This document shows positions 20 to 33,994 of a stretch of 33,994 nt of DNA, one piece after another. Made by a program: the position numbers and the translations under genes. The notes beneath the pieces are model-generated. The model searched no databases, was not told where the DNA came from, and was given only the letters and a program-made list of their open reading frames with translations. How positions within the stretch are numbered: position 1 is the stretch's first letter; every line of letters begins with the position of its first letter. The stretch is from an uncultured virus (IMG/VR IMGVR_UViG_3300028920_001041) (Duplodnaviria; Heunggongvirae; Uroviricota; Caudoviricetes), in IMG/VR virus record IMGVR_UViG_3300028920_001041. The stretch is one strand, 5' to 3'.

Positions 20-619
20 ATGAATGATGATTCTTTGGGATCAGTCCGGAAGAAAATGTTCGCGTTAACACCTGTTCATTTTACTATTGGTAAAAAAGCA
101 CCAAGGGGATTTGAGTCCAAACAAGACTTCGAAACCCGTACAAAAGCGGAGAATACATCTATTGCTCAACTGATGAAAAATTCAGAAGAGTTATATGAAA
201 AGATTCTTCAAGCTAACGCCGATAAGAAAGTGACAATTAACGGGAAAAAAATGTCTGTAGCATTCGCAATCGTCTACAGAGATATTTTCTTGCCCAGAAA
301 GAAGGATCAGTTAACAATATTGAAGTTTCAATATCAAAAAGTATTAACTGAGATCGATAACATTAACGAACAAGCAAAACGAGAAGTTGATCAAATTATT
401 CAGACTTCTTCACAAGCCGAAAAACCTAACGCTGAAGAATCAAAGAAAGCGTATGAGTTTCACATAGGCAATCGTGAGGCAAAGTTAATCGATCCGTTAG
501 GCATTAAAGATGATATTGATAAATTGCAAGCCGAAATTGAGATCATTGAAAGCGATCTTCAAACTCAATTATACACCAATAATATATCTACGGATATAGA
601 TTGGTCTCCTGAAAGTTGA
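20..619 (+). CDS. Helical coiled-coil protein, DIP1984/DUF6847-like; N-terminus possibly missing
   Basis: Motifs ILQANADKKVTINGKKMSVAFAI and KLIDPLGIKDDIDKLQAEIE...LYTNNISTDI resemble this family as I recall it. The in-frame TGA at 8-10 blocks upstream extension. Confidence 0.5.
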   Translation: MNDDSLGSVRKKMFALTPVHFTIGKKAPRGFESKQDFETRTKAENTSIAQLMKNSEELYEKILQANADKKVTINGKKMSVAFAIVYRDIFLPRKKDQLTILKFQYQKVLTEIDNINEQAKREVDQIIQTSSQAEKPNAEESKKAYEFHIGNREAKLIDPLGIKDDIDKLQAEIEIIESDLQTQLYTNNISTDIDWSPES

Positions 620-627
620 CAGATATT

Positions 628-964
628 GAGGTGCGTTTTACGACTCGTAAAAACACGGCCCTTTAGGGAGTGAGGGTTATCACTCCCTATCCCGCCCCTA
701 CGAGGGGCACAGGTAGATGGAACCTGCAAATAGACAAGAAGCATATATAAATGCTTCACCAACTCGTAATCTTTAATATTGTAATCTTAAGCACGGTCAT
801 TAGCTATGAAGCGGGGGCTTTACCTCGTGGAGCGTTCAGACCAATAAGATCGTAAGATCTAATTTTTGACACAATTCTAAGATTTGATTTTATAATATTG
901 CAAGTTTCAGACACAAGTCGGAATGAAGGTAAAATAGGTTTTCCAGTGGACCTTGCGGCGCCTC
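628..964 (+). ncRNA. Candidate structured ncRNA 1 (about 340 nt)
   Basis: Closing helix GAGGTGC 628-634/GCGCCTC 958-964. Internal hairpins at 636-652, 664-689, 694-708, 710-726, 738-757 and 811-828. No credible ORF; GC richer than the flanks. Confidence 0.6.
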
Positions 965-1009
965 CGGTTAAGATGTATCTCAATTATCGTCAAAAGAAGT
1001 AATTAATTT

Positions 1010-1031
1010 TTTCTACATTTATAGAGAAATA
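1010..1031 (+). promoter_or_regulatory. Putative phage promoter, class A (TTTC-N6-TATAGAGAAATA)
   Basis: Copy of the recurring intergenic motif, just upstream of candidate ncRNA 2. Confidence 0.6.
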
Positions 1032-1043
1032 GTACACTTAATT

Positions 1044-1360
1044 AGTTGCCCTTTCCGTAAGTTACTCCGGTATTTGCCGGCCTTGTCACCAACTTATTGG
1101 TCAATAAGGGCTTGCATCGGGGCTTGGATAGACGAATCGTTTCCAGCTCTGTCGTCGTCGAAATCTCCGTGCATACCACCGGTTAACAGAGCGACCTTTC
1201 GCGTGGTGGGCACCGCCCCGTATGACTAAAAGTAGTATCTTATTACTACCTCCTATTCAAGTTATGATTCTCCTCATAATTTGAACACTACATGATTCTG
1301 TAGTGAAATCTCTCGGTTTACTGGGGAGTTAATTCTCCCCAGTGAATCACTATTTTTTTT
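1044..1360 (+). ncRNA. Candidate structured ncRNA 2 with a possible pseudoknot and anti-SD-like motifs
   Basis: Lies between the promoter motif and a terminator. Helices 1048-1053/1106-1111, 1118-1123/1215-1220, and 1146-1152/1186-1192 crossing 1175-1179/1203-1207. Hairpins 1232-1249, 1256-1285 and 1286-1305. Confidence 0.55.
1315..1360 (+). terminator. Intrinsic terminator
   Basis: GGTTTACTGGGGAG-ttaatt-CTCCCCAGTGAATC followed by a T8 tract. Confidence 0.85.
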
Positions 1361-1375
1361 ATTTTTGAGGTAAAA

Positions 1376-1834
1376 ATGAAAGTAGATGATATTCAGCAAA
1401 TACTGTCTTTAGTTAAATTAGAACTTATATGGTCTTTAGTATTAGGCGGAGTAGCACTTTATATTTTTATATTAGTCAAAGATTTTTTAACGACATTAGT
1501 CCATTATCATCAGTTTAAGTCAAATAGTTATGTATCAATAGGTAACATGGTGAGTGTTAATGGATTTATTGGTCGAATTAAGAACTTCAGTAAAACCAAT
1601 ATAATAATAGAAGGTGAATCAGGATATTATAGAGTACCTATGAATCGTTGGCAATTCCATAAATGGATATTCCTTAGAACTGAATGGAAACAAGATTCTG
1701 AAATAGCGGGGCGTAGATTAGGACTTAGGAAAGATGATGATATTCAGATAGATCGTGAGTTATTTCAAAAAGTAGCGGCTGTATTAAATCATTTCGAAAA
1801 GGAGAAAAAAGCGAATGATAGTGGTGGTAATTAA
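1376..1834 (+). CDS. Membrane protein with an MscS-like beta domain
   Basis: N-terminal hydrophobic segment (LIWSLVLGGVALYIFILV), then SIGNMVSVNGFIGRIKNFSKTNIII, resembling the MscS GDxVxxxGxxGxV beta domain. GAGG RBS. Confidence 0.55.
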   Translation: MKVDDIQQILSLVKLELIWSLVLGGVALYIFILVKDFLTTLVHYHQFKSNSYVSIGNMVSVNGFIGRIKNFSKTNIIIEGESGYYRVPMNRWQFHKWIFLRTEWKQDSEIAGRRLGLRKDDDIQIDRELFQKVAAVLNHFEKEKKANDSGGN

Positions 1835-2336
1835 TGGTGCTGCAGAAAGTGGAAAAGATAAATTCATTAGATATATTAAACAGAATGAGAATTATGATTA
1901 TACAACAATAAATCTTTCAACAATTGATCCTTCTAAAGAAGCATTAAAAATATTAGGATGGAATGGAGTATATAAAACTGAAGAAACACGTCAAGCAATG
2001 GTAGATTTAAAACGAATATCAATGAAATTATTTAATGGTCCATTTAAACATATTGTTGAACAAATAAAAGGAATATCACAATTGACAACAAAAACCAATT
2101 GGGTAATTTTTGTTCACTGTCGAGAACCTGAAGAAATACAAAAATTAGTTGATTATTATAAACGAGAGTGTATAACTCTATTAATAAGAAGTTCCCGAGG
2201 AAAAGCTCTAAAGAATGGGTCAGATGATGTAGTTGAAAATTATGATTATGATCATATTATAGATAATAATGAAACGCAAGATATTCTAAAAAATAAAGCT
2301 ATTGATTTTGCAAATAAACATTTAATTCAGGAGTAA
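1815..2336 (+). CDS. P-loop nucleoside monophosphate kinase-like protein
   Basis: N-terminal VVINGAAESGKD P-loop; VHCREPEEI and YDHIIDNN motifs typical of phage dNMP-kinase-like proteins. Confidence 0.7.
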   Translation: MIVVVINGAAESGKDKFIRYIKQNENYDYTTINLSTIDPSKEALKILGWNGVYKTEETRQAMVDLKRISMKLFNGPFKHIVEQIKGISQLTTKTNWVIFVHCREPEEIQKLVDYYKRECITLLIRSSRGKALKNGSDDVVENYDYDHIIDNNETQDILKNKAIDFANKHLIQE

Positions 2337-2340
2337 AATT

Positions 2341-4167
2341 ATGGGAACACAAATTCAAGGAATGGGATCTGTAACTGTTGATGATGTATACGAGAAGATA
2401 AAAGCTGGAGAAAGTCTTGATAAAAAGATAGCATATTCTCATCCAGAAAAAACGAAAAATAAATCAGTCCGAATTTCAATAGGTAGAGTGTGGTTTAATG
2501 AACTTTTACCAGATGAATGGCCACTCGTTAATGAACCTATTAATAATGATAAAATGACTACTATTATAAAACAGTTTGTTAAAAAATATGACTCAGAAAA
2601 AACTGCAGACTTAATTGGTGATATTAAACGAGAAGCATTTAAACTTGCCACATTGAGTCCAAGTTCTTTTAACATTGATACATTTATTCCACCAGACGAA
2701 TGGTTACAATTGAAATCCGAGTTCCAAAAGAAATGGACTAATACTCCAAAAGATGAAATAGATATTAAAGTATTCACAAAAGAAGCTGATAAATTAAGTA
2801 AAGTGTTAGTTAACCATATGGATAAATCTGGATTTAAAATTCAAGATGTAATGAATAGTGGTTCGAGAGGAAATGCTATACAAGATTGGAAAACTCTACT
2901 TGTTTCTAAAGGATACGTTCTTGATATTGAAGGGAACATTAGAGGTCCTATTATTGAAGGGCAATCAGATGGATACACTCAAGAAAACTATTATCATGCA
3001 GCATCTCAATCTCGACGAACTCTTTATTATAAGTCAACAATGACAGCTAAACCAGGATATCTATCTAGAAAAGTAACAATGTCAAACGCAAATGTTGTTG
3101 TTGATTCTACTAGAAATGATTGTCGTACAAGAAAATATTTCGAACTATCTGTTGATTCTAATAACTCTAAACTTCTTTTAAATAGAAACCATATTGTTAA
3201 AGGAGAAATTAAAAGAATAAGAGATGTAGCAGATATTGAAGGTCAAACGATTAAGTTAAGATCTCCTATATATTGTAGGGCAAAAAAAGGAATATGCCCT
3301 GTTTGTTATGGTGGGCATTATAAAGACTTAGGAACAACCAATATTGGTATTCTTGCTGGTGGTGCCATTAATATGGTTGCTATTAACAGTATGATGAAGC
3401 TAAAACATAAAGCTAGTCAAATCGAAATTATTGATGTCAATTTTAAGAAACTTATTAAATCATCAAGTGAAGATATATCTATAATTAATAAACTAATTGA
3501 AATTAGAGAAAAAGAAATTATTGCGAAAACAAACTGTACAATATTATTAGATAAAAGTGATTATGATGAATCAACATTAATAGATACTGGTGAAGAAATT
3601 TTTATACCTGGCATATTCAATCTATACGTTGGTGACATATCTAAAAACAAATTTATATCTCTCCCATTTAACTTTCAAGTACATTTAAATAAACCAGAAG
3701 ATTATGTTGTTGATGGTAAAACTATTATATTAAGATATACTCAAGGTGAGAAGATATTAAGTCAAGATTATTACACAAAACAAACTGAACCGAGTGTAAT
3801 AGATAGAATATTAGGTGGAGCTTTAAAATATATTAATAGCCCTGAAGCGTTAATATCTGCAGCTCACGATCAACTACCATCCCTTGACTTAGTACATATT
3901 GAATTAGTAGTAAGTAATATGTTCCGGCTTAAAGATGATTTAACTATTCCTTGTAGATTGTCTAACTACAAAGATTTTGAAATTGTTGGTATCAAAAAGC
4001 TTCCGCATATTAATAGTTGGTTAACTGGCTTAAGTTTCGAAGATCCCAATAAGGCTATTAAATTAGCATTACTTAATTCAAGGGACAATGATATGAACCC
4101 AATCGAGAAGATTCTCCTCGAGAAATTCTATGATCAAAAGGAGAGAAATCAGAGGGATGAACCGTAA
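2341..4167 (+). CDS. rpoC: DNA-directed RNA polymerase beta' subunit, C-terminal half (split gene)
   Basis: IGRVWFNELLP, SGSRGN, bridge helix TAKPGYLSRKV, Zn site LRSPIYC..ICPVCYG, HIELVVSNM, SWLTGLSFE. No catalytic DxDGD motif in this ORF. Confidence 0.93.
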   Translation: MGTQIQGMGSVTVDDVYEKIKAGESLDKKIAYSHPEKTKNKSVRISIGRVWFNELLPDEWPLVNEPINNDKMTTIIKQFVKKYDSEKTADLIGDIKREAFKLATLSPSSFNIDTFIPPDEWLQLKSEFQKKWTNTPKDEIDIKVFTKEADKLSKVLVNHMDKSGFKIQDVMNSGSRGNAIQDWKTLLVSKGYVLDIEGNIRGPIIEGQSDGYTQENYYHAASQSRRTLYYKSTMTAKPGYLSRKVTMSNANVVVDSTRNDCRTRKYFELSVDSNNSKLLLNRNHIVKGEIKRIRDVADIEGQTIKLRSPIYCRAKKGICPVCYGGHYKDLGTTNIGILAGGAINMVAINSMMKLKHKASQIEIIDVNFKKLIKSSSEDISIINKLIEIREKEIIAKTNCTILLDKSDYDESTLIDTGEEIFIPGIFNLYVGDISKNKFISLPFNFQVHLNKPEDYVVDGKTIILRYTQGEKILSQDYYTKQTEPSVIDRILGGALKYINSPEALISAAHDQLPSLDLVHIELVVSNMFRLKDDLTIPCRLSNYKDFEIVGIKKLPHINSWLTGLSFEDPNKAIKLALLNSRDNDMNPIEKILLEKFYDQKERNQRDEP

Positions 4168-4681
4168 AAAAGGTGTTAGCGTAAAAGAACAAGGGAACAG
4201 AGAAGAGAGAAAGCAAGCAAAGAAACTGAGTGAATGGATGTTTGGTGACAAGGACATGTTAAAGAAACAATCTGATTCTGGAGCATTAGAGATCATATGG
4301 AGTGGGGATGTTGTTCCAATGAAACAAATGCCCGATGAGTGGAACAAAAAATGGCCATTTTTAATGGAGGTAAAAAATGGATATAAAAAACATTATCCTG
4401 ATTTCTGGAGGTACACTCAACTAACAGCATGGGTTAAGAAAGCACATAAAGAAAGTAAAACTCATAATCAGAATGTTTTATTCATAGTTACTCAGTTCTT
4501 TAGAAAAACTGCTTTAGTTACCACAAACTATTGTCCAACTGCTTTACCTTTTAAAGTTTCCTTCCCTATAGAATTAGATGATCAATGGAAATTTATGTAT
4601 GTATATAGATTGAAAGATATGATGAATATTGATTTTCGAGAGGTATTTAATTTTAATACACTAATAAATGGGAGCGGATGA
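4157..4681 (+). CDS. Hjc-like PD-(D/E)XK Holliday junction resolvase
   Basis: GNREERK..KLSEW, SGA, GDV and MEVK motifs. The ATG at 4157 is more plausible than the track start at 4130. Confidence 0.7.
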   Translation: MNRKKGVSVKEQGNREERKQAKKLSEWMFGDKDMLKKQSDSGALEIIWSGDVVPMKQMPDEWNKKWPFLMEVKNGYKKHYPDFWRYTQLTAWVKKAHKESKTHNQNVLFIVTQFFRKTALVTTNYCPTALPFKVSFPIELDDQWKFMYVYRLKDMMNIDFREVFNFNTLINGSG

Positions 4682-7600
4682 TGGATGATCAAATATTAAT
4701 ACAAGAATTAAACTTGAGTTCTCTTAGACCAACAACATTGGTTAAAGGAACTCTACGAGTGGATAGACAGGCAATCTTCATTGTTTTACCAGATACTAAT
4801 CTAAGAATCTGGAATGAGATATATAATACTGGGTTGCTCTTGACTAATTGTCAAGCTATTATATCCCCTGCGAAAAGATTTACTATTGGGCGTAGAAAAT
4901 TTAACGCAAAGTTACATCAATTAGATCTAAGAAAGCAATTACTTAAAAGGGAAGGACCAGGTAAGAAATTAAGAGTAGTATCTACTGTTCCTATAAACCT
5001 AAGAAATAAGAAGAACAAACTTACTTCAGCAAAACCGAAATCGCAGTATTTCTTCTATGATGCGACTGTTTATTCTGATGCACTTAAATATCTAGCAGAA
5101 AGATTTAGCGGCAAAATGCTGACTACTATGATATTTAAAGAACTATCGTCTTTATATATAAATTTAAAGACACTATTACCAACATCTAGCATTGAGTTAT
5201 TACTCTTGATTAAAAATCATGAAGGTCAACTTGCTGAAATGATTAACAATCTACATATGAGACTTCCAGAAAAAGAATTCTCTGGACTTAGACTTTATGA
5301 TAATTTTACGATTGTTTCAAATACAGATAAAGTATTATTACCAATCGCATACAAAAGAAAAGGTAATAATGTTCTTCATCGTCCTAATATTTCTAAAATT
5401 GAGAAATTCTTAGCAGCAGAAGAAATGTCAAAAGAAGTAGAAAAAGAATCTCCATTTCAGCCTACTGATGTCGATTTTAATAAAGGTGACACTTTTGTAA
5501 ACAAACTTGTGAGAAGCTTAAGAAAATCAAATCTTAGAACCAATATAAATGATAGTGGTGATATAAAAGTAGGATTAGATCCTGATAAAGTCACTAATAT
5601 TTTAAAGAAGAACAAAATTGATGATCCAGATATTGCAATTAATGTTAAATCATCAATTGATGCTTATATGCTTGATAAAGGTGATAAACTGACAACAGAT
5701 GAAGCAGAAAGTATAGTAATGAAAGCTATAAACTATACTGTTCATGGTACAGATGATGTTCCTGATGAATATATTGCTAAACCTCAACTACTCTTTAATA
5801 AATTAAAAGAGATTAAAACATACCGTGTTCCTCTTGACTACCCAGATTTAGAGTATCCAATTAGTCCTAAATCATCTGTTGATATTGATCATACAACAGG
5901 GCAATTTCGCCAAAAATTTGAGTTTGAAAAAGCTATCCATGAAAATGTTAGAAATCTATTAAAATCAGTTGAAGATGTTAAAGAACATCCAATAAGAATT
6001 AAGAAAGTTGATTGGGAGTTAGATGATAACATGCAAGATAGAGTTATCAACTACAAAGTAACTTTACAGAATTTAACTGGCGAGAATAAGAAACCATATA
6101 TCGTTGAATTAAAAGTACCAGCTACTATTAACGATAAATATTTTAAACTTCATGGTAGCACCTATATTATTGCTTCGCAACAATTTATGAAACCTGTGAC
6201 TAAGACAGACAAGAATGAAGTTCGAATTCTCAGTAACTATGCTATTATAAGAATTGGAATTAAAAATCTGAAATTTAATCCAGGTGATGTTGATGAAATA
6301 ATTGATAAATATGTTAAGATTAGATATCCGAATTTAATTAAAAAACAAGAGTCTAATTCGGTTATGTTTAAAGATGGATCAGTTATAAACTTTATTGGAG
6401 ATACTGTGTACGAAGAGCCAGACAGAGTAGTCACTATTGATTCTGATACTGGTAAATTAAAAGATCAAGATGGATCAGAAATGAATATCGGGAAAAATGA
6501 ATTTATATACGAAATTATTCTCGAAAAGATTTTTAAAGTGAATCCAGATGATATGATGTATAGAACTAAAAAATCTGTCCCATTTATGTATATATATCTA
6601 AGTGGTATGACTATTCCTCTTATTATATATCAATGGAGTCAAAAAGGACTTTTAACAGCATTAAATGATCTCGGAATTGATTATGAATTTTCTAATACTG
6701 ATAAATTAACTGAAGCCGTTGATGCTCAAGTATCGCCGACACAAGCTTACGCATTTGTAGCTACAGGAGATCAATTCTTAGCTATTAAACCAAAGTCAAC
6801 GAAAGAAAAATTGATTGTTAATGGAATTCTTGTTGGTAGACTAAAGAAACCTATTGATAATTTAGATGATCCTGCACAAATTGAAGAACATATTTCTAAC
6901 GTATATGGATCTGGAGCAGTTTACAACATACACAATATGACTGAGAATATGATTGATCCTGTTACTAAAGAACTTCTCGAATTTGAAAATCTACCAACTA
7001 AGTTACCAAATCTAGTTTCGAGTCACTGTGTCCCAATGCTTATGAATAATAAAGCGGACAGTTTATCTGATTTAAAAATATACAGATCTCGAATGTCAGA
7101 AATGGTATTACAAAGCATGTATAAACAAATTAAACAAGCGCATACAGAATACAAGAATAAAGTATCATTTGGTGATCCTAAAGCAGAACTTTGGTTGGAT
7201 AAAGAGTATATCATTAGAGATATGATTACCGATGCTGGAGTGTTACAACATACCGAACCTGTAACTCCTGTTGATGAAATTATGCTCGCTTCTAGAGTAA
7301 TTAAATCAGGCAAGGGTGGTGTTCAGAGTAAACAAATGTTTAAAGTAGAACAGCGAAATATACATCCATCACAATATGGTATTATTTCGGCAAATTCGAC
7401 TCCAGAAGGTAGTAATGTCGGTATCATAAATCGTCATACTTTAACACCCGTAATTGTTAACAAATATGGATCATATGGTGCTAAAGACATATCAGGACAA
7501 TCTGGATGGAATATGTTATCAATTGAAGAGTCATTAGTTCCTTTCCAAAATGAAATGGATAGTGAACGACTTGTAATGGCAGCAACACATCAAGGACAAG

Positions 7601-9348
7601 TTACTCCTATTGAAGATGGAGAAGCTCCGCTTGTTGGTACCGGTGCAGAATTTATTGTGCCACAATTAGCGAGTTCTAGATTTGCCCATAAAGCTAAATT
7701 TGATGGTAAAGTAATTGAAGTACAAAAAGGGAAAATAGCTACCGTTAAATATAGAAACGGACAGACTGAAATGTTTGATATAACTCCTCGTTTAAGTAGA
7801 ACAAAAATGGGAGCATATATATCTCTAGAAATGAGCACATTAAACGAAGGAGAGAAATTTAAAAAGAATCAATTAGTTGGCTTCACTAAAAATTTTACAA
7901 AAGATAGTAGATATGCCAGTGGTAAAAATGTATTTATGTGTGTGATGAATCCATCTGGATACGGACACGAAGATGCTTACACAATAAGTAAAGAATTTTC
8001 TAAATCCGCATCAAGGGATATGGTTAAAGAGATTCATGCTATCATACCGCCAGAGGTTAAAATTATTAACATAGTTAAGAAAATTGGAGAGAAAGTTGAG
8101 AAAGATCAAGTACTTATAGAATTTGTTTACCAACAGAATCTTGATGATTATTTAGAAATTAATAATTTAATTGATACAGAAGATGAAGAAGTTCTAAGTG
8201 TGTTTGGATCTGGAGATAATAGTATTAAGCTTCTAGCTCAAGAAGGAGAAATTATTGATATCAAAATATATATCAATAATAGGAATTTAGTTGATCCTCA
8301 AATAGTAACTTTCCATAAAAAGCTTGTAGCTGAAACAAAGAAAACAATTGGCAATTTAGCTAAAAATCTTAAAGATGATCAATTAAAATCTGTTGATAAT
8401 ATTGATGTATCATTCTTCAAAACTGGAGGCCATAAATTTAAACAGAATGAATTCCAAGGAGCAAGAATAGTATACTATATTAAACAACAGAAACCTTTAA
8501 TAGAAGGTGATAAGATTTCGAATAGATTTGGGGCAAAAGGTGTTATTGGTAAAGTATTTGATGAAACACCTTATGGAGAAATAACTCCAAGAATTGATGT
8601 ATTTATTAGCGCATCTGGTGTATTTGGTAGAAAGAACGTTGCCATGATTAAAGAATTATATCTCGGTAAAGTTATGTATTATCTAAACTACAAATGCAGA
8701 GAATGGGCAAATAACACAAAGGTAAAAACTGATAAGATTATTAAAACAATATTAGATGTTTATAAATTAGTAGGTACAAAGAATGTATATGATGATATAT
8801 CTGCTAAGTTTAAAGGTATGACTGAAGTTAAGCTTAGAAAATTATTTAAGGATGAAGACTTTAATTTCTACATTCTTATTGCTCCTTTTGAAACAGTCTC
8901 ATTTAAAGATATAAAGACTGCAGCAGATCATCTAAGTATTAAATTAGATGAGAAAGTATATATGCCAGAATTAAAAGCGTGGACTCAAACTGAAGTTCCC
9001 GTTGGTGTAGCCTATTATAGTGCCCTTGAACAATTCTCGGAGATATATGCTAATGTAAGAGGAACAGGAATGTATCAAGGACTTACCAGACAACCAGCAA
9101 AAGGTAAGTCGAAACAAGGTGGTCAGAGTATTGGGTCATTAGATATGAACGCATTATTAACTTATAATGTACCTTCTATTAGAAATGAGCTATTTACTTT
9201 AAGATCTGATGATCATAGATCTAAAAGATTGGTTAATAGTAATATTATTACACAAGGTCACTCTGATATTCCAACAGAATCAGGTCGAGGTGGTACTTCA
9301 CAACTATTAGATGTGTATATCACAGGCATGGGCTTAGAAATTATTTAA
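4678..9348 (+). CDS. rpoB: DNA-directed RNA polymerase beta subunit with about 400 aa N-terminal extension
   Basis: KYFKLHGSTYIIASQ, RNIHPSQYG..STPEGSNVG, LVPFQNEMDSERLVM, PLVGTG, GYGHEDA, GDKISNRFGAKGV, QPAKGKSKQGGQSIG, LRSDD. Confidence 0.96.
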   Translation: MMDDQILIQELNLSSLRPTTLVKGTLRVDRQAIFIVLPDTNLRIWNEIYNTGLLLTNCQAIISPAKRFTIGRRKFNAKLHQLDLRKQLLKREGPGKKLRVVSTVPINLRNKKNKLTSAKPKSQYFFYDATVYSDALKYLAERFSGKMLTTMIFKELSSLYINLKTLLPTSSIELLLLIKNHEGQLAEMINNLHMRLPEKEFSGLRLYDNFTIVSNTDKVLLPIAYKRKGNNVLHRPNISKIEKFLAAEEMSKEVEKESPFQPTDVDFNKGDTFVNKLVRSLRKSNLRTNINDSGDIKVGLDPDKVTNILKKNKIDDPDIAINVKSSIDAYMLDKGDKLTTDEAESIVMKAINYTVHGTDDVPDEYIAKPQLLFNKLKEIKTYRVPLDYPDLEYPISPKSSVDIDHTTGQFRQKFEFEKAIHENVRNLLKSVEDVKEHPIRIKKVDWELDDNMQDRVINYKVTLQNLTGENKKPYIVELKVPATINDKYFKLHGSTYIIASQQFMKPVTKTDKNEVRILSNYAIIRIGIKNLKFNPGDVDEIIDKYVKIRYPNLIKKQESNSVMFKDGSVINFIGDTVYEEPDRVVTIDSDTGKLKDQDGSEMNIGKNEFIYEIILEKIFKVNPDDMMYRTKKSVPFMYIYLSGMTIPLIIYQWSQKGLLTALNDLGIDYEFSNTDKLTEAVDAQVSPTQAYAFVATGDQFLAIKPKSTKEKLIVNGILVGRLKKPIDNLDDPAQIEEHISNVYGSGAVYNIHNMTENMIDPVTKELLEFENLPTKLPNLVSSHCVPMLMNNKADSLSDLKIYRSRMSEMVLQSMYKQIKQAHTEYKNKVSFGDPKAELWLDKEYIIRDMITDAGVLQHTEPVTPVDEIMLASRVIKSGKGGVQSKQMFKVEQRNIHPSQYGIISANSTPEGSNVGIINRHTLTPVIVNKYGSYGAKDISGQSGWNMLSIEESLVPFQNEMDSERLVMAATHQGQVTPIEDGEAPLVGTGAEFIVPQLASSRFAHKAKFDGKVIEVQKGKIATVKYRNGQTEMFDITPRLSRTKMGAYISLEMSTLNEGEKFKKNQLVGFTKNFTKDSRYASGKNVFMCVMNPSGYGHEDAYTISKEFSKSASRDMVKEIHAIIPPEVKIINIVKKIGEKVEKDQVLIEFVYQQNLDDYLEINNLIDTEDEEVLSVFGSGDNSIKLLAQEGEIIDIKIYINNRNLVDPQIVTFHKKLVAETKKTIGNLAKNLKDDQLKSVDNIDVSFFKTGGHKFKQNEFQGARIVYYIKQQKPLIEGDKISNRFGAKGVIGKVFDETPYGEITPRIDVFISASGVFGRKNVAMIKELYLGKVMYYLNYKCREWANNTKVKTDKIIKTILDVYKLVGTKNVYDDISAKFKGMTEVKLRKLFKDEDFNFYILIAPFETVSFKDIKTAADHLSIKLDEKVYMPELKAWTQTEVPVGVAYYSALEQFSEIYANVRGTGMYQGLTRQPAKGKSKQGGQSIGSLDMNALLTYNVPSIRNELFTLRSDDHRSKRLVNSNIITQGHSDIPTESGRGGTSQLLDVYITGMGLEII

Positions 9349-9378
9349 ATAAGCAATCAAATCTCCTCTTTCGTTAAA

Positions 9379-10025: not shown

Positions 10026-10033
10026 CAAAAGGG

Positions 10034-10076
10034 AATAGGGGCTATTATCGTGTAGTCCCTATTTCAAGATTTTTTT
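10034..10076 (+). terminator. Intrinsic terminator
   Basis: AATAGGGGCTA-ttatcgtg-TAGTCCCTATT followed by a T tract. Confidence 0.7.
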
Positions 10077-13305: not shown

Positions 13306-13473
13306 ATGAGTGAATTTACTTGTTCGGAATGTGGTGGAGAAATACAACAAATTGGTAAACTCTTAAAATGCACCAAGTGTAAAAGAGAGAAAACCATAAC
13401 ACCAAAAGAACAACAATTCAATGAAGTTGATATGAATGATAGAACAAAAAATCTTGATATTCTAATGGAGTAA
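13306..13473 (+). CDS. 55-aa zinc-ribbon protein (absent from the ORF track)
   Basis: GGAGG RBS; MSEFTCSECGGEIQQIGKLLKCTKCKREK..., two CxxC pairs. Confidence 0.8.
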   Translation: MSEFTCSECGGEIQQIGKLLKCTKCKREKTITPKEQQFNEVDMNDRTKNLDILME

Positions 13474-13687: not shown

Positions 13688-13933
13688 ATGGATGATTTAA
13701 TAAGTGAAGCTATTCCTGGATTAACAGAAGCTTCAAAGAAAAGAATTGGTTATAGAAAAATATTGTTAAAATATATTAGAGAAAATATTGAATATTACCC
13801 AGATGATCACACAAAAAAATTATTAATAAAAAGAATTAAAAGAGGGCAATTAAGCAATTTATCGGATAGTGATTTAAGTGTTCATGCTCAAATAATATCG
13901 GATGTAAAGGAGGGACTAAAACCAAATGAGTAA
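13688..13933 (+). CDS. Small hypothetical protein
   Basis: GGAG RBS; overlaps the queC start. Confidence 0.7.
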   Translation: MDDLISEAIPGLTEASKKRIGYRKILLKYIRENIEYYPDDHTKKLLIKRIKRGQLSNLSDSDLSVHAQIISDVKEGLKPNE

Positions 13934-14633
13934 AGGAACTGTTGTAATGGCGCTGAGTGGAGGAATGGACTCAGCAACTGTACTAGATAAATTAGCATTC
14001 GAAGGATTTAGTGTTGTATGTATAGGATTCACATATGGATCTAAACATAACGAATTTGAGAATGCTGCGGCATTAGCATTAGCTAAACATTATAAAGTAC
14101 ATTACAAATTAATTGATCTTACTGTAGTATTCGATGGATTTAAATCTAATCTTCTTAAGGATGGGGGAGACATACCAGAAGGACATTATGAACAAGATAA
14201 TATGTCTCTGACTGTTGTTCCTGGAAGAAATACAATTTTTGCTAGTATTCTTCTTGGTGTCGCAGAATCTATCGGTGCTTCAAAGATTGCACTAGGTGTA
14301 CATCAAGGAGATCATGCTATTTATCCAGACTGTAGAATTGGATACATTAAAGCACTAGACACACTATTATGGTTAGCATCAGATGAAAGAGTATCAGTGA
14401 TTACACCTTTTCTACATACAACCAAAATTGGTATTCTTGATTTCGGTCTTAGAAATTCTACACCTTATCATTTGACAAGAACATGCTATAAAGATCAAGA
14501 ATTAAGTTGTGGAGTCTGTGGAAGTTGTAACGAAAGAATTGAAGCATTCGCCACACATGGGAAAAAAGATCCTATTAAATATGAGAATGTTCCTGATTGG
14601 AATACTCTATATAATAAATTCCGAAAAGCTTAG
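13926..14633 (+). CDS. queC: 7-cyano-7-deazaguanine synthase
   Basis: SGGMDS PP-loop, VPGRNTIF, YPDCR, TCY..CGVCGSC. Confidence 0.96.
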   Translation: MSKGTVVMALSGGMDSATVLDKLAFEGFSVVCIGFTYGSKHNEFENAAALALAKHYKVHYKLIDLTVVFDGFKSNLLKDGGDIPEGHYEQDNMSLTVVPGRNTIFASILLGVAESIGASKIALGVHQGDHAIYPDCRIGYIKALDTLLWLASDERVSVITPFLHTTKIGILDFGLRNSTPYHLTRTCYKDQELSCGVCGSCNERIEAFATHGKKDPIKYENVPDWNTLYNKFRKA

Positions 14634-15722: not shown

Positions 15723-15773
15723 TTACTCTAACCGGAAAGGACTATTCCTTTTCGGTTAGAGTAATATCTTTTT
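15723..15773 (+). terminator. Long hairpin or terminator after the Ubl gene
   Basis: TTACTCTAACCGGAAAGGA-ctat-TCCTTTTCGGTTAGAGTAA, then TATCTTTTT. Confidence 0.7.
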
Positions 15774-23648: not shown

Positions 23649-23762
23649 ATGAAAGAATGGTTTAAGAAATTCTGGAGACAGTTAAAGTGTAGACATAAGA
23701 ATCAAACACCTGGTTTTCATTGTTACACTTGTAACGATTGTGGTAAAATTATATGGGATTAA
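23649..23762 (+). CDS. 37-aa Cys/His peptide (absent from the ORF track)
   Basis: MKEWFKKFWRQLKCRHKNQTPGFHCYTCNDCGKIIWD; GGGGA upstream. Confidence 0.7.
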   Translation: MKEWFKKFWRQLKCRHKNQTPGFHCYTCNDCGKIIWD

Positions 23763-33772: not shown

Positions 33773-33994
33773 ATGGCTCAATTTACACCCCCGTTCGCGG
33801 CACAAGCCGAACAAACACCTGAAACCGCTCCGCCTGCTGCTCCGGCCGCCGCAGTTCCGCCTGCTGCCCCTGCTGCTGCTGCTCCGACCGCCGCAGTTCC
33901 GCCTGCTGCGCCTGCTGCTGATGCTCCGAAGGTGAAGAAAACCATCGAGAGAAAAGCAACACGGACGATCAATAAGGACGACATTCTATTTGTA
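33773..33994 (+). CDS. Partial ORF with a Pro/Ala-rich N-terminus (runs off the window; absent from the ORF track)
   Basis: AAGGAG RBS; MAQFTPPFAAQAEQTPETAPPAAPAAAVPPAAP...KVKKTIERKATRTINKDDILFV. Confidence 0.85.
   Translation, partial: MAQFTPPFAAQAEQTPETAPPAAPAAAVPPAAPAAAAPTAAVPPAAPAADAPKVKKTIERKATRTINKDDILFV

What the first reader, a model, noticed from the sequence alone, without database searches (positions are those of the whole stretch)
1010..1360. Second stand-alone ncRNA with its own promoter, possible pseudoknot and terminator
Seen: the promoter motif (1020-1031) and a strong terminator (1315-1360) enclose ~320 nt with no sizeable ORF. A GC-rich domain closed by CGGGGC/GCCCCG contains crossing helices GCTCTGT/ACAGAGC and ACCAC/GTGGT. 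It lacks tRNA, tmRNA and RNase P signatures. Inference: a novel phage ncRNA, possibly ribozyme-like or regulatory.
Basis: partly seen in the sequence, partly recalled or inferred. Interest (0 to 1): 0.72.

Follow-up and report, generated by a model that had tools for sequence, protein, structure and literature searches.

The report
New folded RNA in jumbo phage
An uncultured giant phage from marine sediment carries a gene for a roughly 320-base RNA that codes for no protein, folds into a conserved knot-like shape that matches no catalogued RNA family, and has no known job.

Summary
Window 1003-1360 has three parts. First is a copy of a phage-specific promoter motif (11 hits, all + strand, 2.0 expected). 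Then comes about 320 nt with no conserved ORF. Last is a 14-bp intrinsic terminator.

The conserved body (1041-1228) recurs in three diverged relatives, found through the downstream gene.
- CGGGGC/GCCCCG closes a three-way junction.
- ACCAC/GTGGT lies in one arm.
- GCTCTGT/ACAGAGC is a 7-bp pairing between the loops of the two arms, which is a pseudoknot.

Over 46 pairs in 4 sequences, 95-98% of cells pair, and 7 pairs (plain alignment) or 10 pairs (hand register) changed on both sides. No Rfam family matches, and there is no tRNA or tmRNA.

Weak points: only four versions are known, most covariation comes from one of them, the folding energy of the core is unremarkable, and no RNA data exist.

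Best reading: a new structured phage RNA transcribed on its own, probably early, that acts through its fold. A cis-acting leader or antitermination role for the downstream RNA-polymerase genes is not excluded. A second conserved folded RNA of about 370 nt lies just upstream (620-1000).

The parts
1003..1034 (+). Phage-specific promoter-like motif (core ATAGAGAAATA, 1021-1031). The transcription start is inferred a few bases downstream, about 1034-1040.
   Evidence: Repeat family D6/D1/D2. 11 core hits, all + strand, against 2.0 expected. 9 of the 11 lie between genes. Kept in L003, L004 and L005. The start position is inferred by analogy with jumbo-phage early promoters, whose start lies about 6 nt after the motif (passages of PMC5312081; PMC7598289).
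1048..1111 (+). 5' hairpin domain. H1 is 1048-1053/1106-1111. H2 is 1055-1057/1098-1100 plus 1058-1063/1091-1096. H3 is a variable tip hairpin at 1067-1080.
   Evidence: H1 is invariant. H2 has one double change (U-A to C-G) and two wobble changes. The tip hairpin is replaced by an unrelated hairpin in L005 and carries a compensated G-C to A-U change in L004.
1112..1117 (+). Conserved single-stranded linker between the two domains (UUGCAU; UUGAAU in L005).
   Evidence: Alignments A3 and A4.
1118..1220 (+). Core three-way junction. The closing helix H4 is 1118-1123/1215-1220.
   Evidence: C-G changes to U-A in L005 when the one-base indel before the 3' strand is allowed for. The plain MAFFT alignment mis-registers that strand.
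1126..1168 (+). Arm 1. X0 is 1126-1128/1166-1168 and X is 1131-1135/1155-1159. It has an internal loop and a 19-nt end loop.
   Evidence: 6 of its 8 pairs changed on both sides in L005 with pairing kept. 4 of those are already seen in the plain alignment.
1169..1213 (+). Arm 2. B1 is 1169-1172/1210-1213 and B2 is 1174-1179/1203-1208.
   Evidence: C-G changes to U-A in L004 and L005, with three wobble changes. 2 of 40 cells are unpaired.
1146..1152 (+). 5' strand of the loop-loop (kissing) helix K, in the end loop of arm 1. It pairs with 1186-1192.
   Evidence: 7 pairs, 28 of 28 cells paired. The last pair is U-A in the window and L004, and C-G in L003 and L005. Duplex energy is -9.7 or -11.4 kcal/mol.
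1186..1192 (+). 3' strand of the kissing helix K, in the end loop of arm 2.
   Evidence: As for 1146-1152.
1231..1249 (+). Hairpin directly after the core. It is kept in position in all four versions.
   Evidence: Separate folds of the four 3' parts. L005 has an unrelated sequence that forms a hairpin at the same place.
1256..1305 (+). Two perfect hairpins (1256-1285 and 1286-1305) that form a fast-evolving spacer.
   Evidence: Absent in L004. L003 has four hairpins and L005 has one. Identity is 0.66 to L003 and 0.21 to L004, the latter with 53 gaps.
1315..1360 (+). Intrinsic terminator: a 14-bp stem-loop at 1315-1348 and T8 at 1353-1360.
   Evidence: A 14-bp hairpin plus U run is kept in all four versions with many changed stem positions.
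1362..1378 (+). A second T run, GAGG (1367-1370) and the ATG (1376) of the 152-aa ORF that heads the downstream RNA-polymerase gene block.
   Evidence: Invariant in all four versions.

Best explanation
Window 1003-1360 is a gene for a structured non-coding RNA of about 320 nt, belonging to a family not described before.

What the RNA looks like:
- It starts just downstream of a phage-specific promoter. By analogy this is probably an early promoter read by the virion RNA polymerase.
- A 5' hairpin domain (1048-1111) is joined by a short conserved linker to a three-way junction (1118-1220).
- The junction's two arms are similar in length, about 10-11 bp each. Their end loops pair with each other over 7 bp, giving a kissing-loop pseudoknot that should lock the arms side by side.
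- A conserved hairpin follows, then a fast-evolving hairpin spacer, then a strong intrinsic terminator where most transcripts should end.

What is shown:
- The stretch is non-coding and under purifying selection.
- The helices, including the pseudoknot, are kept by compensatory change.
- The promoter motif and the terminator are conserved.

What is inferred:
- The RNA is released as a discrete molecule early in infection and works through its folded shape, as a binding partner or scaffold for a protein. It is not a ligand-sensing switch.
- The terminator limits transcription into the downstream RNA-polymerase subunit genes. Any read-through makes the same RNA their 5' leader.

I put about 0.9 on 'real conserved structured RNA' and about 0.45 on 'acts as a stand-alone, trans-acting folded RNA'.
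For: Non-coding: stops in all six frames. The 51-aa frame is broken in 3 of 3 relatives and shows no codon periodicity.

Selection: identity to L003 and L004 is 0.82 and 0.86 over 1041-1230. Third codon positions of three flanking ORFs score 0.61-0.69.

Fold:
- On a plain MAFFT alignment of the 4 versions, 46 pairs give 95.1% of 184 cells paired.
- 7 pairs changed on both sides. Controls with the 3' partners slid by 1-3 columns give 36-44% paired and 0-4 such pairs. 0 of 500 shuffles reach the paired percentage and 1 of 500 reach the count of double changes.
- With helices registered by hand, 181 of 184 cells pair and 10 pairs have a compensated double change.
- The kissing helix pairs in 28 of 28 cells and has one covarying pair, in L003 and L005.
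- 6 G-U cells would be A-C mismatches on the other strand, so the + strand is the folded one.

Transcription unit:
- The motif family is over-represented and strand-specific.
- The motif and a 14-bp terminator are kept in 4 of 4 versions.
- In L005 the 112 nt upstream are unrelated to the window's upstream RNA (score 16, reached by 180 of 200 shuffles; the L004 control scores 177). L005 also carries a motif copy on the opposite strand. The promoter plus RNA therefore travel as a unit.
- Other motif copies sit 28-89 nt before a start codon. This one sits 345 nt before, with a terminator in between.

Not a classical riboswitch: between core and terminator lie one conserved hairpin and 0-4 unrelated, self-contained hairpins, so no conserved alternative pairing links the fold to the terminator.

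Downstream genes may be late genes that the terminator shields:
- The best AR9 match of the 608-aa subunit is annotated as a virion RNA polymerase subunit (22.5% identity).
- A PHROG 'virion structural protein' family matches its C-terminus.

Uniqueness: the covariance model R1 finds only the 4 known copies (171-210 bits). The next best hit scores 8.1 bits in 55,775 bases.
Against: - No transcript evidence of any kind was obtained.
- Only four versions exist. Three of them are 82-86% identical to each other in this stretch.
- 8 of the 10 double changes come from L005 alone. For H4, X0 and X in L005 I chose the register by eye. On the unedited alignment only 7 double changes are seen, and H4 shows 3 unpaired cells.
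- All four versions were found through the downstream ORF, so their position next to that ORF is by construction.
- Nested folding energy of the core is ordinary: z -0.9 in the window, with 20 of 100 shuffles as low. It does not favour the + strand.
- The promoter is a motif match only.
- No recognisable promoter lies between the terminator and the 8-kb block 1376-9348, and no other strong terminator lies inside that block. The block may therefore depend on read-through from this promoter, which would make the RNA a leader.
- Terminators that directly abut the next ORF also occur at 10032/10077 and 15723/15779, so this layout is not special to this RNA.
- A more distant relative, L006, has the same downstream genes and a terminator but lacks the RNA.
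Confidence: 0.45

Rival explanations
1. Cis-acting leader. The folded RNA stays attached to, or acts on, the polymerase that made it and sets how much transcription passes the terminator at 1315-1360 into the RNA-polymerase subunit block. This could be processive antitermination, as with HK022 put RNA or the Bacillus EAR element, or a landing site for a phage antiterminator protein. Those comparisons are recalled, not tested.
For: The order is promoter, folded RNA, strong terminator, then an 8-kb gene block with no recognisable promoter of its own and no further strong terminator. A variable spacer between the RNA and the terminator is compatible with processive antitermination, which needs no alternative pairing. 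Upstream of the window, another motif copy is followed by about 190 nt of hairpins and a U run before the 237-aa ORF. This may be a recurring promoter-proximal layout.
Against: L006 has the same downstream genes behind a terminator but no such RNA. Terminators that abut ORFs occur elsewhere in the window without any such RNA. Middle and late promoters of jumbo phages cannot be recognised by sequence (passage of PMC7598289), so the block may have its own unseen promoter. The subunit genes look slightly closer to virion (late) polymerase genes. No known antitermination RNA family matches.
Confidence: 0.25
2. Self-assembling RNA. The two complementary loops pair between molecules rather than within one, giving dimers or rings as in phi29 packaging RNA or the ROOL and GOLLD RNA cages.
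For: The two 7-nt loop sequences are perfectly complementary in 4 of 4 versions. 6 of the 7 pairs are invariant even in L005, where the neighbouring stems changed extensively. That points to a constraint beyond simple pairing. Homo-oligomers of large bacterial and phage RNAs held by kissing loops are reported (PMC12286853, abstract seen in the listing).
Against: The two arms are about equal in length (3+5 bp and 4+6 bp, each with an internal loop) and leave the junction with 0-2 nt linkers. This is the geometry expected for a contact within one molecule. No packaging genes lie nearby. There is no match to the pRNA, ROOL or GOLLD models.
Confidence: 0.1
3. Ligand-sensing riboswitch that controls the terminator.
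For: A complex, conserved fold lies 5' of an intrinsic terminator and an ORF.
Against: No known aptamer class matches. The junction linkers are only 0-2 nt, leaving little room for a pocket. The spacer between fold and terminator is made of independent hairpins that differ in number (0-4) between versions, so no conserved antiterminator can form. Few unpaired nucleotides are invariant.
Confidence: 0.07
4. Self-cleaving or other ribozyme.
For: It has a compact pseudoknotted fold. Nothing else points this way.
Against: No ribozyme family of Rfam matches, even at E 10. No conserved junction core is visible.
Confidence: 0.03
5. Not an RNA: a DNA-level element, such as an origin or a protein-binding array, or conservation without function.
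For: Folding energy does not distinguish the strands. Overall identity of the gap is similar to that of the neighbouring genes.
Against: Compensatory changes keep the pairing, and G-U pairs are tolerated only on the + strand. Identity exceeds that of third codon positions. The stretch is framed by a promoter motif and a terminator on the same strand.
Confidence: 0.05

Closest known systems
Riboswitch aptamers built on a junction with a loop-loop contact (purine and lysine classes; recalled)
   Same: A closing helix and two roughly parallel arms whose end loops pair, giving a compact conserved fold upstream of an intrinsic terminator.
   Different: No match to any riboswitch model. Junction linkers of 0-2 nt leave no obvious pocket. 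The 7-bp Watson-Crick kissing helix is longer than in the purine class. There is an extra 5' hairpin domain. No conserved switch to the terminator exists.
phi29-type packaging RNA (pRNA, Rfam RF00044; accession as given in an earlier scan note)
   Same: A phage-encoded three-way junction RNA with two mutually complementary loops.
   Different: No match to the model. Here the loops pair over 7 nt and the arm geometry suggests pairing within one molecule. The host genome is a jumbo phage with multisubunit RNA polymerases and shows no phi29-like packaging context in the window. The RNA continues on both sides of the closing helix.
Processive antitermination RNAs (HK022 put, Bacillus EAR; recalled)
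   Same: A promoter-proximal folded RNA followed by a terminator and a long operon. EAR also contains a pseudoknot.
   Different: No family match. It is larger and differently built. No evidence exists that it touches a polymerase. A relative (L006) manages without it.
Large ornate phage and bacterial RNAs (GOLLD RF01998, ROOL RF03087; accessions as given)
   Same: Orphan, elaborately folded RNAs found in phages, with kissing loops important for architecture (PMC12286853, abstract seen).
   Different: No match. This RNA is much smaller: a conserved body of about 190 nt. Together with the adjacent 370-nt RNA, the non-coding locus is 756 nt.
Orphan kissing-loop RNAs of phages noted earlier in this scan (for example e1-5812008: about 210 nt, eight helices, loop-loop pseudoknot, jumbo phages)
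   Same: The description is much the same: promoter-driven, about 200 nt, about eight helices, a loop-loop pseudoknot, uncultured jumbo phages.
   Different: The genomic context differs: upstream of a phosphoesterase operon there, upstream of polymerase subunit genes here. The sequence look-up found no look-alike window. I could not compare sequences, so whether they are one family is untested.

Membership tests
Any Rfam 15 family | Score at or above the family's gathering threshold | tested here: not met
   0 matches in the whole window. In 560-1420 at E up to 10 there are only 4 matches, at 10.6-23 bits against thresholds of 35-90, and none lies in the 1041-1228 core. 0 matches up to E 1 in L003, L004 and L005.
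tRNA / tmRNA | Cloverleaf or tRNA-like domain with a tag reading frame, as detected by ARAGORN | tested here: not met
   0 genes in the window.
phi29-type pRNA | Match to the family model | tested here: not met
phi29-type pRNA | Three-way junction with two mutually complementary loops | tested here: met
   H4, arm 1 and arm 2, with the 7-nt complementary loops, are present in 4 of 4 versions.
phi29-type pRNA | Loops pair between molecules to form a ring on the prohead, in a phi29-like genome | not testable with these tools
   The gene content of the window is that of a jumbo phage with polymerase subunit genes. Oligomer state needs an experiment.
Transcription-terminating riboswitch | Conserved alternative pairing between the aptamer's 3' part and the terminator (an expression platform) | tested here: not met
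   One conserved hairpin plus 0-4 unrelated hairpins separate the core and the terminator in the four versions.
Transcription-terminating riboswitch | Specific ligand binding | not testable with these tools
   It needs in-line probing or a similar assay.
Processive antitermination RNA (put / EAR type) | Promoter-proximal RNA upstream of the terminator or terminators of the same unit | tested here: met
   The motif is at 1021-1031, the terminator at 1315-1360, and no other recognisable promoter lies before 9398.
Processive antitermination RNA (put / EAR type) | The RNA makes the polymerase resistant to terminators | not testable with these tools
   It needs transcription assays. L006 lacks the RNA yet keeps a terminator before the same genes.
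Small self-cleaving ribozymes | Match to a known catalytic core | tested here: not met
   No ribozyme family is among the matches up to E 10.
Group I / group II intron | Family match and interruption of a host gene | tested here: not met
   No intron family matches. The flanking ORFs are complete, separate genes: stop at 617-619 and start at 1376. The downstream one is also conserved as a complete, separate ORF in relatives.

The most novel reading that the evidence does not exclude
The RNA is a cis-acting regulator of a non-canonical, phage-encoded multisubunit RNA polymerase. Made first from an early promoter, its pseudoknotted fold binds the transcribing enzyme, or recruits a phage factor to it, and decides whether that enzyme passes the strong terminator into the genes for polymerase subunits. 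It would then be an RNA switch in the phage's own transcription cascade. No RNA regulator of jumbo-phage polymerases turned up in my two literature searches, which were narrow.
Probability: 0.15. Interest if true: 0.85.

Novelty: new variant of a known kind. Interest (0 to 1): 0.5.

Why it matters
Jumbo phages that carry their own multisubunit RNA polymerases run a transcription programme that is largely independent of the host. Almost nothing is known about RNA-level regulators or structured RNAs in them.

This locus gives a concrete, testable object. It is a roughly 190-nt conserved fold with a covariation-supported kissing-loop pseudoknot, its own promoter motif and a terminator. It sits directly before polymerase subunit genes and next to a second folded RNA of about 370 nt.

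If it acts in trans, it is a candidate protein decoy or scaffold made early in infection. If it acts in cis, it would be an RNA control point for the phage's own polymerase genes. Either way it is small enough for chemical probing and structure determination.

Its value is limited by three things: the narrow known distribution (four versions, all from sediment-type metagenomes), the uncultured host, and the fact that orphan kissing-loop RNAs in phages are proving common.

Tried and rejected
Homologue searches that found nothing useful:
- blastn of 600-1400 against 50,697 phage records: no match.
- Single-protein locus searches in viral contigs with the 152-aa, 199-aa and 608-aa ORFs: no usable locus.
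- An exact 20-mer of the core in viral contigs: 1 hit, a chance match inside a GC-rich gene.
- A degenerate junction pattern in viral contigs: 23 loci, 0 of 23 with the downstream motifs.
- A loop-loop pattern in viral contigs: 13 loci, 0 of 13 matched by model R1.
- A stricter pattern in genome contigs: 0.
- Protein-alignment-anchored scans of viral and genome contigs: 0 relatives each.
- The whole genome of the window is not held.
- 16 relatives of the 152-aa protein exist, but I could fetch DNA for only 4 loci besides the window's own. The tool that returns encoding contigs is closed.

Expression:
- No RNA holder is listed among the 6 public runs that hold the stretch.
- Laying 4 DNA runs gave identical sequence over the element and no informative variants.

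Ideas dropped:
- Coding under a changed genetic code: all three stop codons occur in every frame.
- A paralogue elsewhere in the window or the loci: none.
- The other long gaps in the window as further RNA genes: they hold small ORFs.
- Resemblances to tmRNA, hammerhead, T-box, HDV-like and group I P3-P7 topologies, which I considered from memory: no Rfam model matches, and the junction sequences are not conserved between versions.
- An RNA1-RNA2 pairing: 8 nt are complementary (841-848 with 1093-1100) in 3 of 3 genomes, but about one such match is expected by chance and both segments are conserved anyway.
- Enrichment of the loop sequences elsewhere in the window: none.
- Assigning the downstream polymerase genes to the virion or the non-virion enzyme: only weak hints.

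Not used: structure prediction, complex prediction and the protein atlas, because the object is an RNA.
Full report
**Context.** The window is part of an AT-rich jumbo phage genome. All ORFs of 80 aa or more that look real lie on the + strand. They include beta- and beta'-like subunits of a multisubunit RNA polymerase (2341-4167 and 4678-9348), a QueC-like enzyme, a primase, a clamp loader and topoisomerase II subunits. The protein of ORF 1376-1834 is on record on a contig of up to 306,383 bases. The DNA occurs in marine-sediment and salt-marsh metagenome runs. No close relative is in the 50,697 phage records. The nearest polymerase matches are at 22-27% identity to PBS1/AR9-like, Staphylococcus and other jumbo phages.

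**The gap.** Between the stop of ORF 20-619 and the start of ORF 1376-1834 lie 756 bases at 41% G+C, in a genome of about 30%. Every frame on both strands is interrupted by TAA, TAG and TGA, so no single reassignment opens a frame. The other long gaps of the window hold small ORFs. This is therefore the only long ORF-free stretch here.

**The observation.**
- *Promoter motif.* The motif at 1020-1031 belongs to a direct-repeat family with a longer upstream part. Its core ATADAGAAAT occurs 11 times, always on the + strand, against 2.0 expected on both strands (0 of 100 shuffles reach 11). 9 of the 11 lie between genes.
- *Likely promoter class.* Two papers describe early, virion-polymerase promoters of jumbo phages as over-represented, AT-rich, highly conserved motifs with the transcription start about 6 nt downstream (passages of PMC7598289; passages of PMC5312081). 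By that analogy the RNA would start near 1034-1040 and be an early transcript. This is inference.
- *Distance to the gene.* Other motif copies sit 28-89 nt before a start codon. This one sits 345 nt before, with a terminator in between.
- *Terminator.* It has a 14-bp stem (1315-1348) and T8 (1353-1360).

**Relatives.**
- DNA and single-protein searches in the viral collection found nothing.
- The 152-aa protein has 16 relatives at 56-79% identity. Their alignment retrieved five metagenome loci.
- L002 is identical to the window. L003, L004 and L005 encode proteins 71-74% identical. L006 encodes one 51% identical.
- L003 and L004 align with the whole gap. L005's contig starts 443 nt before the ORF and holds a much more diverged copy of the second RNA only. 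L006 lacks it: an 824-aa ORF and a 115-aa ORF are followed by a terminator and the ORF.
- Further pattern and protein-anchored scans of viral and genome contigs gave only chance hits or nothing.
- The family is therefore known in four versions, all found through the downstream ORF. Their position next to that ORF is by construction.

**Selection.** Against L003 and L004, identity is 0.82 and 0.86 over 1041-1230 and 0.81 and 0.82 over 620-1002. Third codon positions of three flanking ORFs score 0.61-0.69, and first and second positions 0.74-0.94. The stretch 1231-1310 is not conserved (0.66 to L003; 0.21 to L004 with 53 gaps). The 51-aa ORF inside the element is interrupted in all three relatives, and substitutions show no codon periodicity.

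**Fold of the conserved body (1041-1228).**
- *5' hairpin domain.* H1 is 1048-1053/1106-1111. H2 is 1055-1063/1091-1100, with a bulge. The tip is variable.
- *Linker and junction.* A linker (1112-1117) leads to a three-way junction closed by H4 (1118-1123/1215-1220).
- *Arm 1.* X0 is 1126-1128/1166-1168 and X is 1131-1135/1155-1159. The arm has an internal loop and a 19-nt end loop.
- *Arm 2.* B1 is 1169-1172/1210-1213 and B2 is 1174-1179/1203-1208.
- *Junction linkers.* They are 2, 0 and 1-2 nt.
- *Kissing helix K.* Seven bases of the arm 1 loop (1146-1152) are complementary to seven bases of the arm 2 loop (1186-1192).

**Covariation.**
- *Plain MAFFT alignment of the four versions.* The 46 pairs give 95.1% of 184 cells paired, and 7 pairs changed on both sides. 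With the 3' partners slid by 1-3 columns, 36-44% of cells pair and 0-4 pairs show double changes. 0 of 500 column shuffles reach the paired percentage and 1 of 500 reach the count of double changes. The tool warns that a structure derived from the same sequences tends to beat these controls on cells paired.
- *Hand register.* MAFFT mis-registers three strands. These are H4's 3' strand in L005, where one extra base precedes it, X's 3' strand in L003, and X0 in L005. Placing the helices by hand gives 181 of 184 cells paired and 10 pairs with a compensated double change: one in H2, one in H4, three in X0, three in X, one in K (in L003 and L005) and one in B2 (in L004 and L005). It also shows one double change that breaks a pair, in B2 of L005.
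- *How much rests on L005.* Eight of the ten double changes rest on L005 alone. Comparing the window with L005's table, 15 pairs differ. Fourteen of these still form a standard pair, and the broken one is again the B2 pair.
- *Strand.* Six G-U cells would be A-C on the other strand, so the + strand is the one that folds.
- *RNAalifold.* It proposes an alternative short hairpin for 1124-1146. Its lower stem is broken in L005 in 3 of 5 pairs, so I prefer X0/X.

**Energy.** The whole 1032-1362 stretch folds far better than shuffles (z -6.8 on the + strand, -4.2 on the minus strand). That comes mostly from the perfect 3' hairpins. The conserved body alone gives z -0.9 in the window, with 20 of 100 shuffles as low, and -2.0 to -2.5 in the relatives. 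The minus strand scores similarly. Nested folding cannot count the kissing helix, which is worth -9.7 or -11.4 kcal/mol as a duplex. The case for the fold therefore rests on covariation, not on energy.

**3' part.** In each version the core is followed by one hairpin at a fixed place; in L005 its sequence is unrelated. Then come 0 (L004), 1 (L005), 2 (window) or 4 (L003) self-contained hairpins. Last come a 14-bp terminator hairpin with many changed stem positions, an invariant U-rich tract, GAGG and ATG. No conserved pairing links the core to the terminator, which argues against a classical riboswitch.

**Is it a unit of its own?**
- *For.* It has a promoter motif and a terminator on the same strand. 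In L005 the 112 nt before the motif are unrelated to the window's upstream RNA (local score 16, reached by 180 of 200 shuffles, against 177 for the L004 control). L005 also carries a motif copy on the opposite strand. The covariance model R1 finds only these four copies in 55,775 bases (171-210 bits; next best 8.1 bits).
- *Against.* No recognisable promoter lies between the terminator and the 8-kb block 1376-9348, and no strong terminator lies inside that block. Transcripts that read through would carry this RNA as their leader.
- *Qualifications.* Terminators that abut the next ORF also occur at 10032/10077 and 15723/15779. Middle and late promoters of jumbo phages cannot be predicted from sequence (PMC7598289). 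The 608-aa subunit's best AR9 match is annotated as a virion-polymerase subunit, and a PHROG 'virion structural protein' family matches its C-terminus. These are weak hints that the block is late and that the terminator shields it from early transcription.

**What it is not.**
- No tRNA or tmRNA.
- No Rfam family in the window at gathering score.
- The only matches up to E 10 in 560-1420 are four low-scoring chance hits. The best, at E 1.3, lies on the terminator hairpin.
- Nothing up to E 1 in the three relatives' loci.
- That excludes, at the sensitivity of the models, RNase P, known riboswitches, self-cleaving ribozymes, group I and II introns, pRNA, GOLLD, ROOL and the rest.

**Mechanism.** I commit to a discrete, early, trans-acting folded RNA whose rigid shape is the functional part. 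That shape has two arms clamped by a 7-bp loop-loop helix, plus a side hairpin domain. It most likely acts as a binding partner or scaffold for a protein (0.45). The main rival is a cis-acting leader or antitermination element for the polymerase gene block (0.25). Next come assembly between molecules through the loops (0.10), a riboswitch (0.07), a DNA-level or non-functional element (0.05) and a ribozyme (0.03). Six of the seven kissing pairs are invariant even where the neighbouring stems were rewritten. This hints at a constraint beyond pairing, and I cannot explain it.

**Comparison and novelty.** In architecture it resembles junction riboswitch aptamers with loop-loop contacts, and phi29 pRNA. 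In position it resembles put- or EAR-type elements. It is a member of none of these (see the membership table). Notes from this scan list several orphan kissing-loop RNAs in phages. One of them, in jumbo phages, has a very similar description but a different gene context and no sequence look-alike. These are unchecked leads. They make this kind of object less surprising. My two literature searches were narrow and turned up no description of this RNA. That is no proof that it is unpublished.

**Neighbour.** The first 380 nt of the same gap (about 620-1000) form another conserved fold. RNAalifold on three sequences gives 98 pairs, closed by a 16-bp long-range helix (about 625-640 with 972-990). 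96.2% of cells pair and 11 pairs have double changes, against 0-2 in the slid controls. It has no Rfam match.

**Verdict.** The ribozyme idea has no support, and the function is open.

Noticed in passing
window 620-1000: A second conserved folded RNA of about 370 nt lies directly after the stop of ORF 20-619. RNAalifold gives 98 pairs on 3 sequences, closed by a 16-bp long-range helix (about 625-640 with 972-990). 96.2% of cells pair and 11 pairs have double changes, against 0-2 in slid controls. It has no Rfam match and no obvious promoter motif or terminator of its own. It may be the 3' part of the upstream mRNA.
   Followed up: partly
window 1003, 9377, 9405, 15225, 19660, 20089, 24087, 28814, 31871: A family of promoter-like motifs: a longer AT-rich upstream half plus the core ATADAGAAAT. 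All are on the + strand and between genes, and two stand in tandem at 9377/9405. They are probably the early promoters of this phage. Two further core matches lie inside ORFs (16076, 33263).
   Followed up: partly
L002 1306-1531 (upstream of the window's first base): The window's ORF 20-619 really starts upstream (237 aa, ATG at L002 1531). Before it, another promoter-motif copy is followed by about 190 nt with several hairpins and a U-rich run. This may be a third structured leader or RNA. L003 and L004 have two motif copies in this region.
   Followed up: no
window 10032-10065 and 15723-15764: Strong terminator-like hairpins directly abut the next ORF (10077 and 15779) with no promoter motif between them. 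Leaky terminators inside operons therefore seem common in this phage.
   Followed up: no
L006 1-3000: A more distant relative (protein 51% identical) has the same downstream gene order but lacks both RNAs. An 824-aa ORF and a 115-aa ORF are followed by a terminator hairpin and the ORF.
   Followed up: partly
window 841-848 and 1093-1100: 8 nt of the upstream RNA are complementary to the 3' strand of helix H2 of this RNA in 3 of 3 genomes, and the match is longer in the window and in L004. About one such match is expected by chance.
   Followed up: partly
window 13306-13473 and 23649-23762: Small ORFs with paired CxxC motifs (55 aa and 37 aa) lie in otherwise 'empty' gaps. They are possibly zinc-ribbon proteins.
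   Followed up: no
window 33818-33928: GC-rich tandem repeats (units offset by 27 and 15 nt) lie inside the last, open-ended ORF. They would encode a Pro/Ala-rich stretch (family D3).
   Followed up: no
window 13926-14633: A QueC-like gene (PHROG E 2.7e-62) suggests that the phage makes a 7-deazaguanine DNA modification.
   Followed up: no
window 395-512 in run X6: One short contig from another sediment study carries a diverged version of ORF 20-619, with 17 differences in 118 nt. Further relatives therefore exist in public reads.
   Followed up: no
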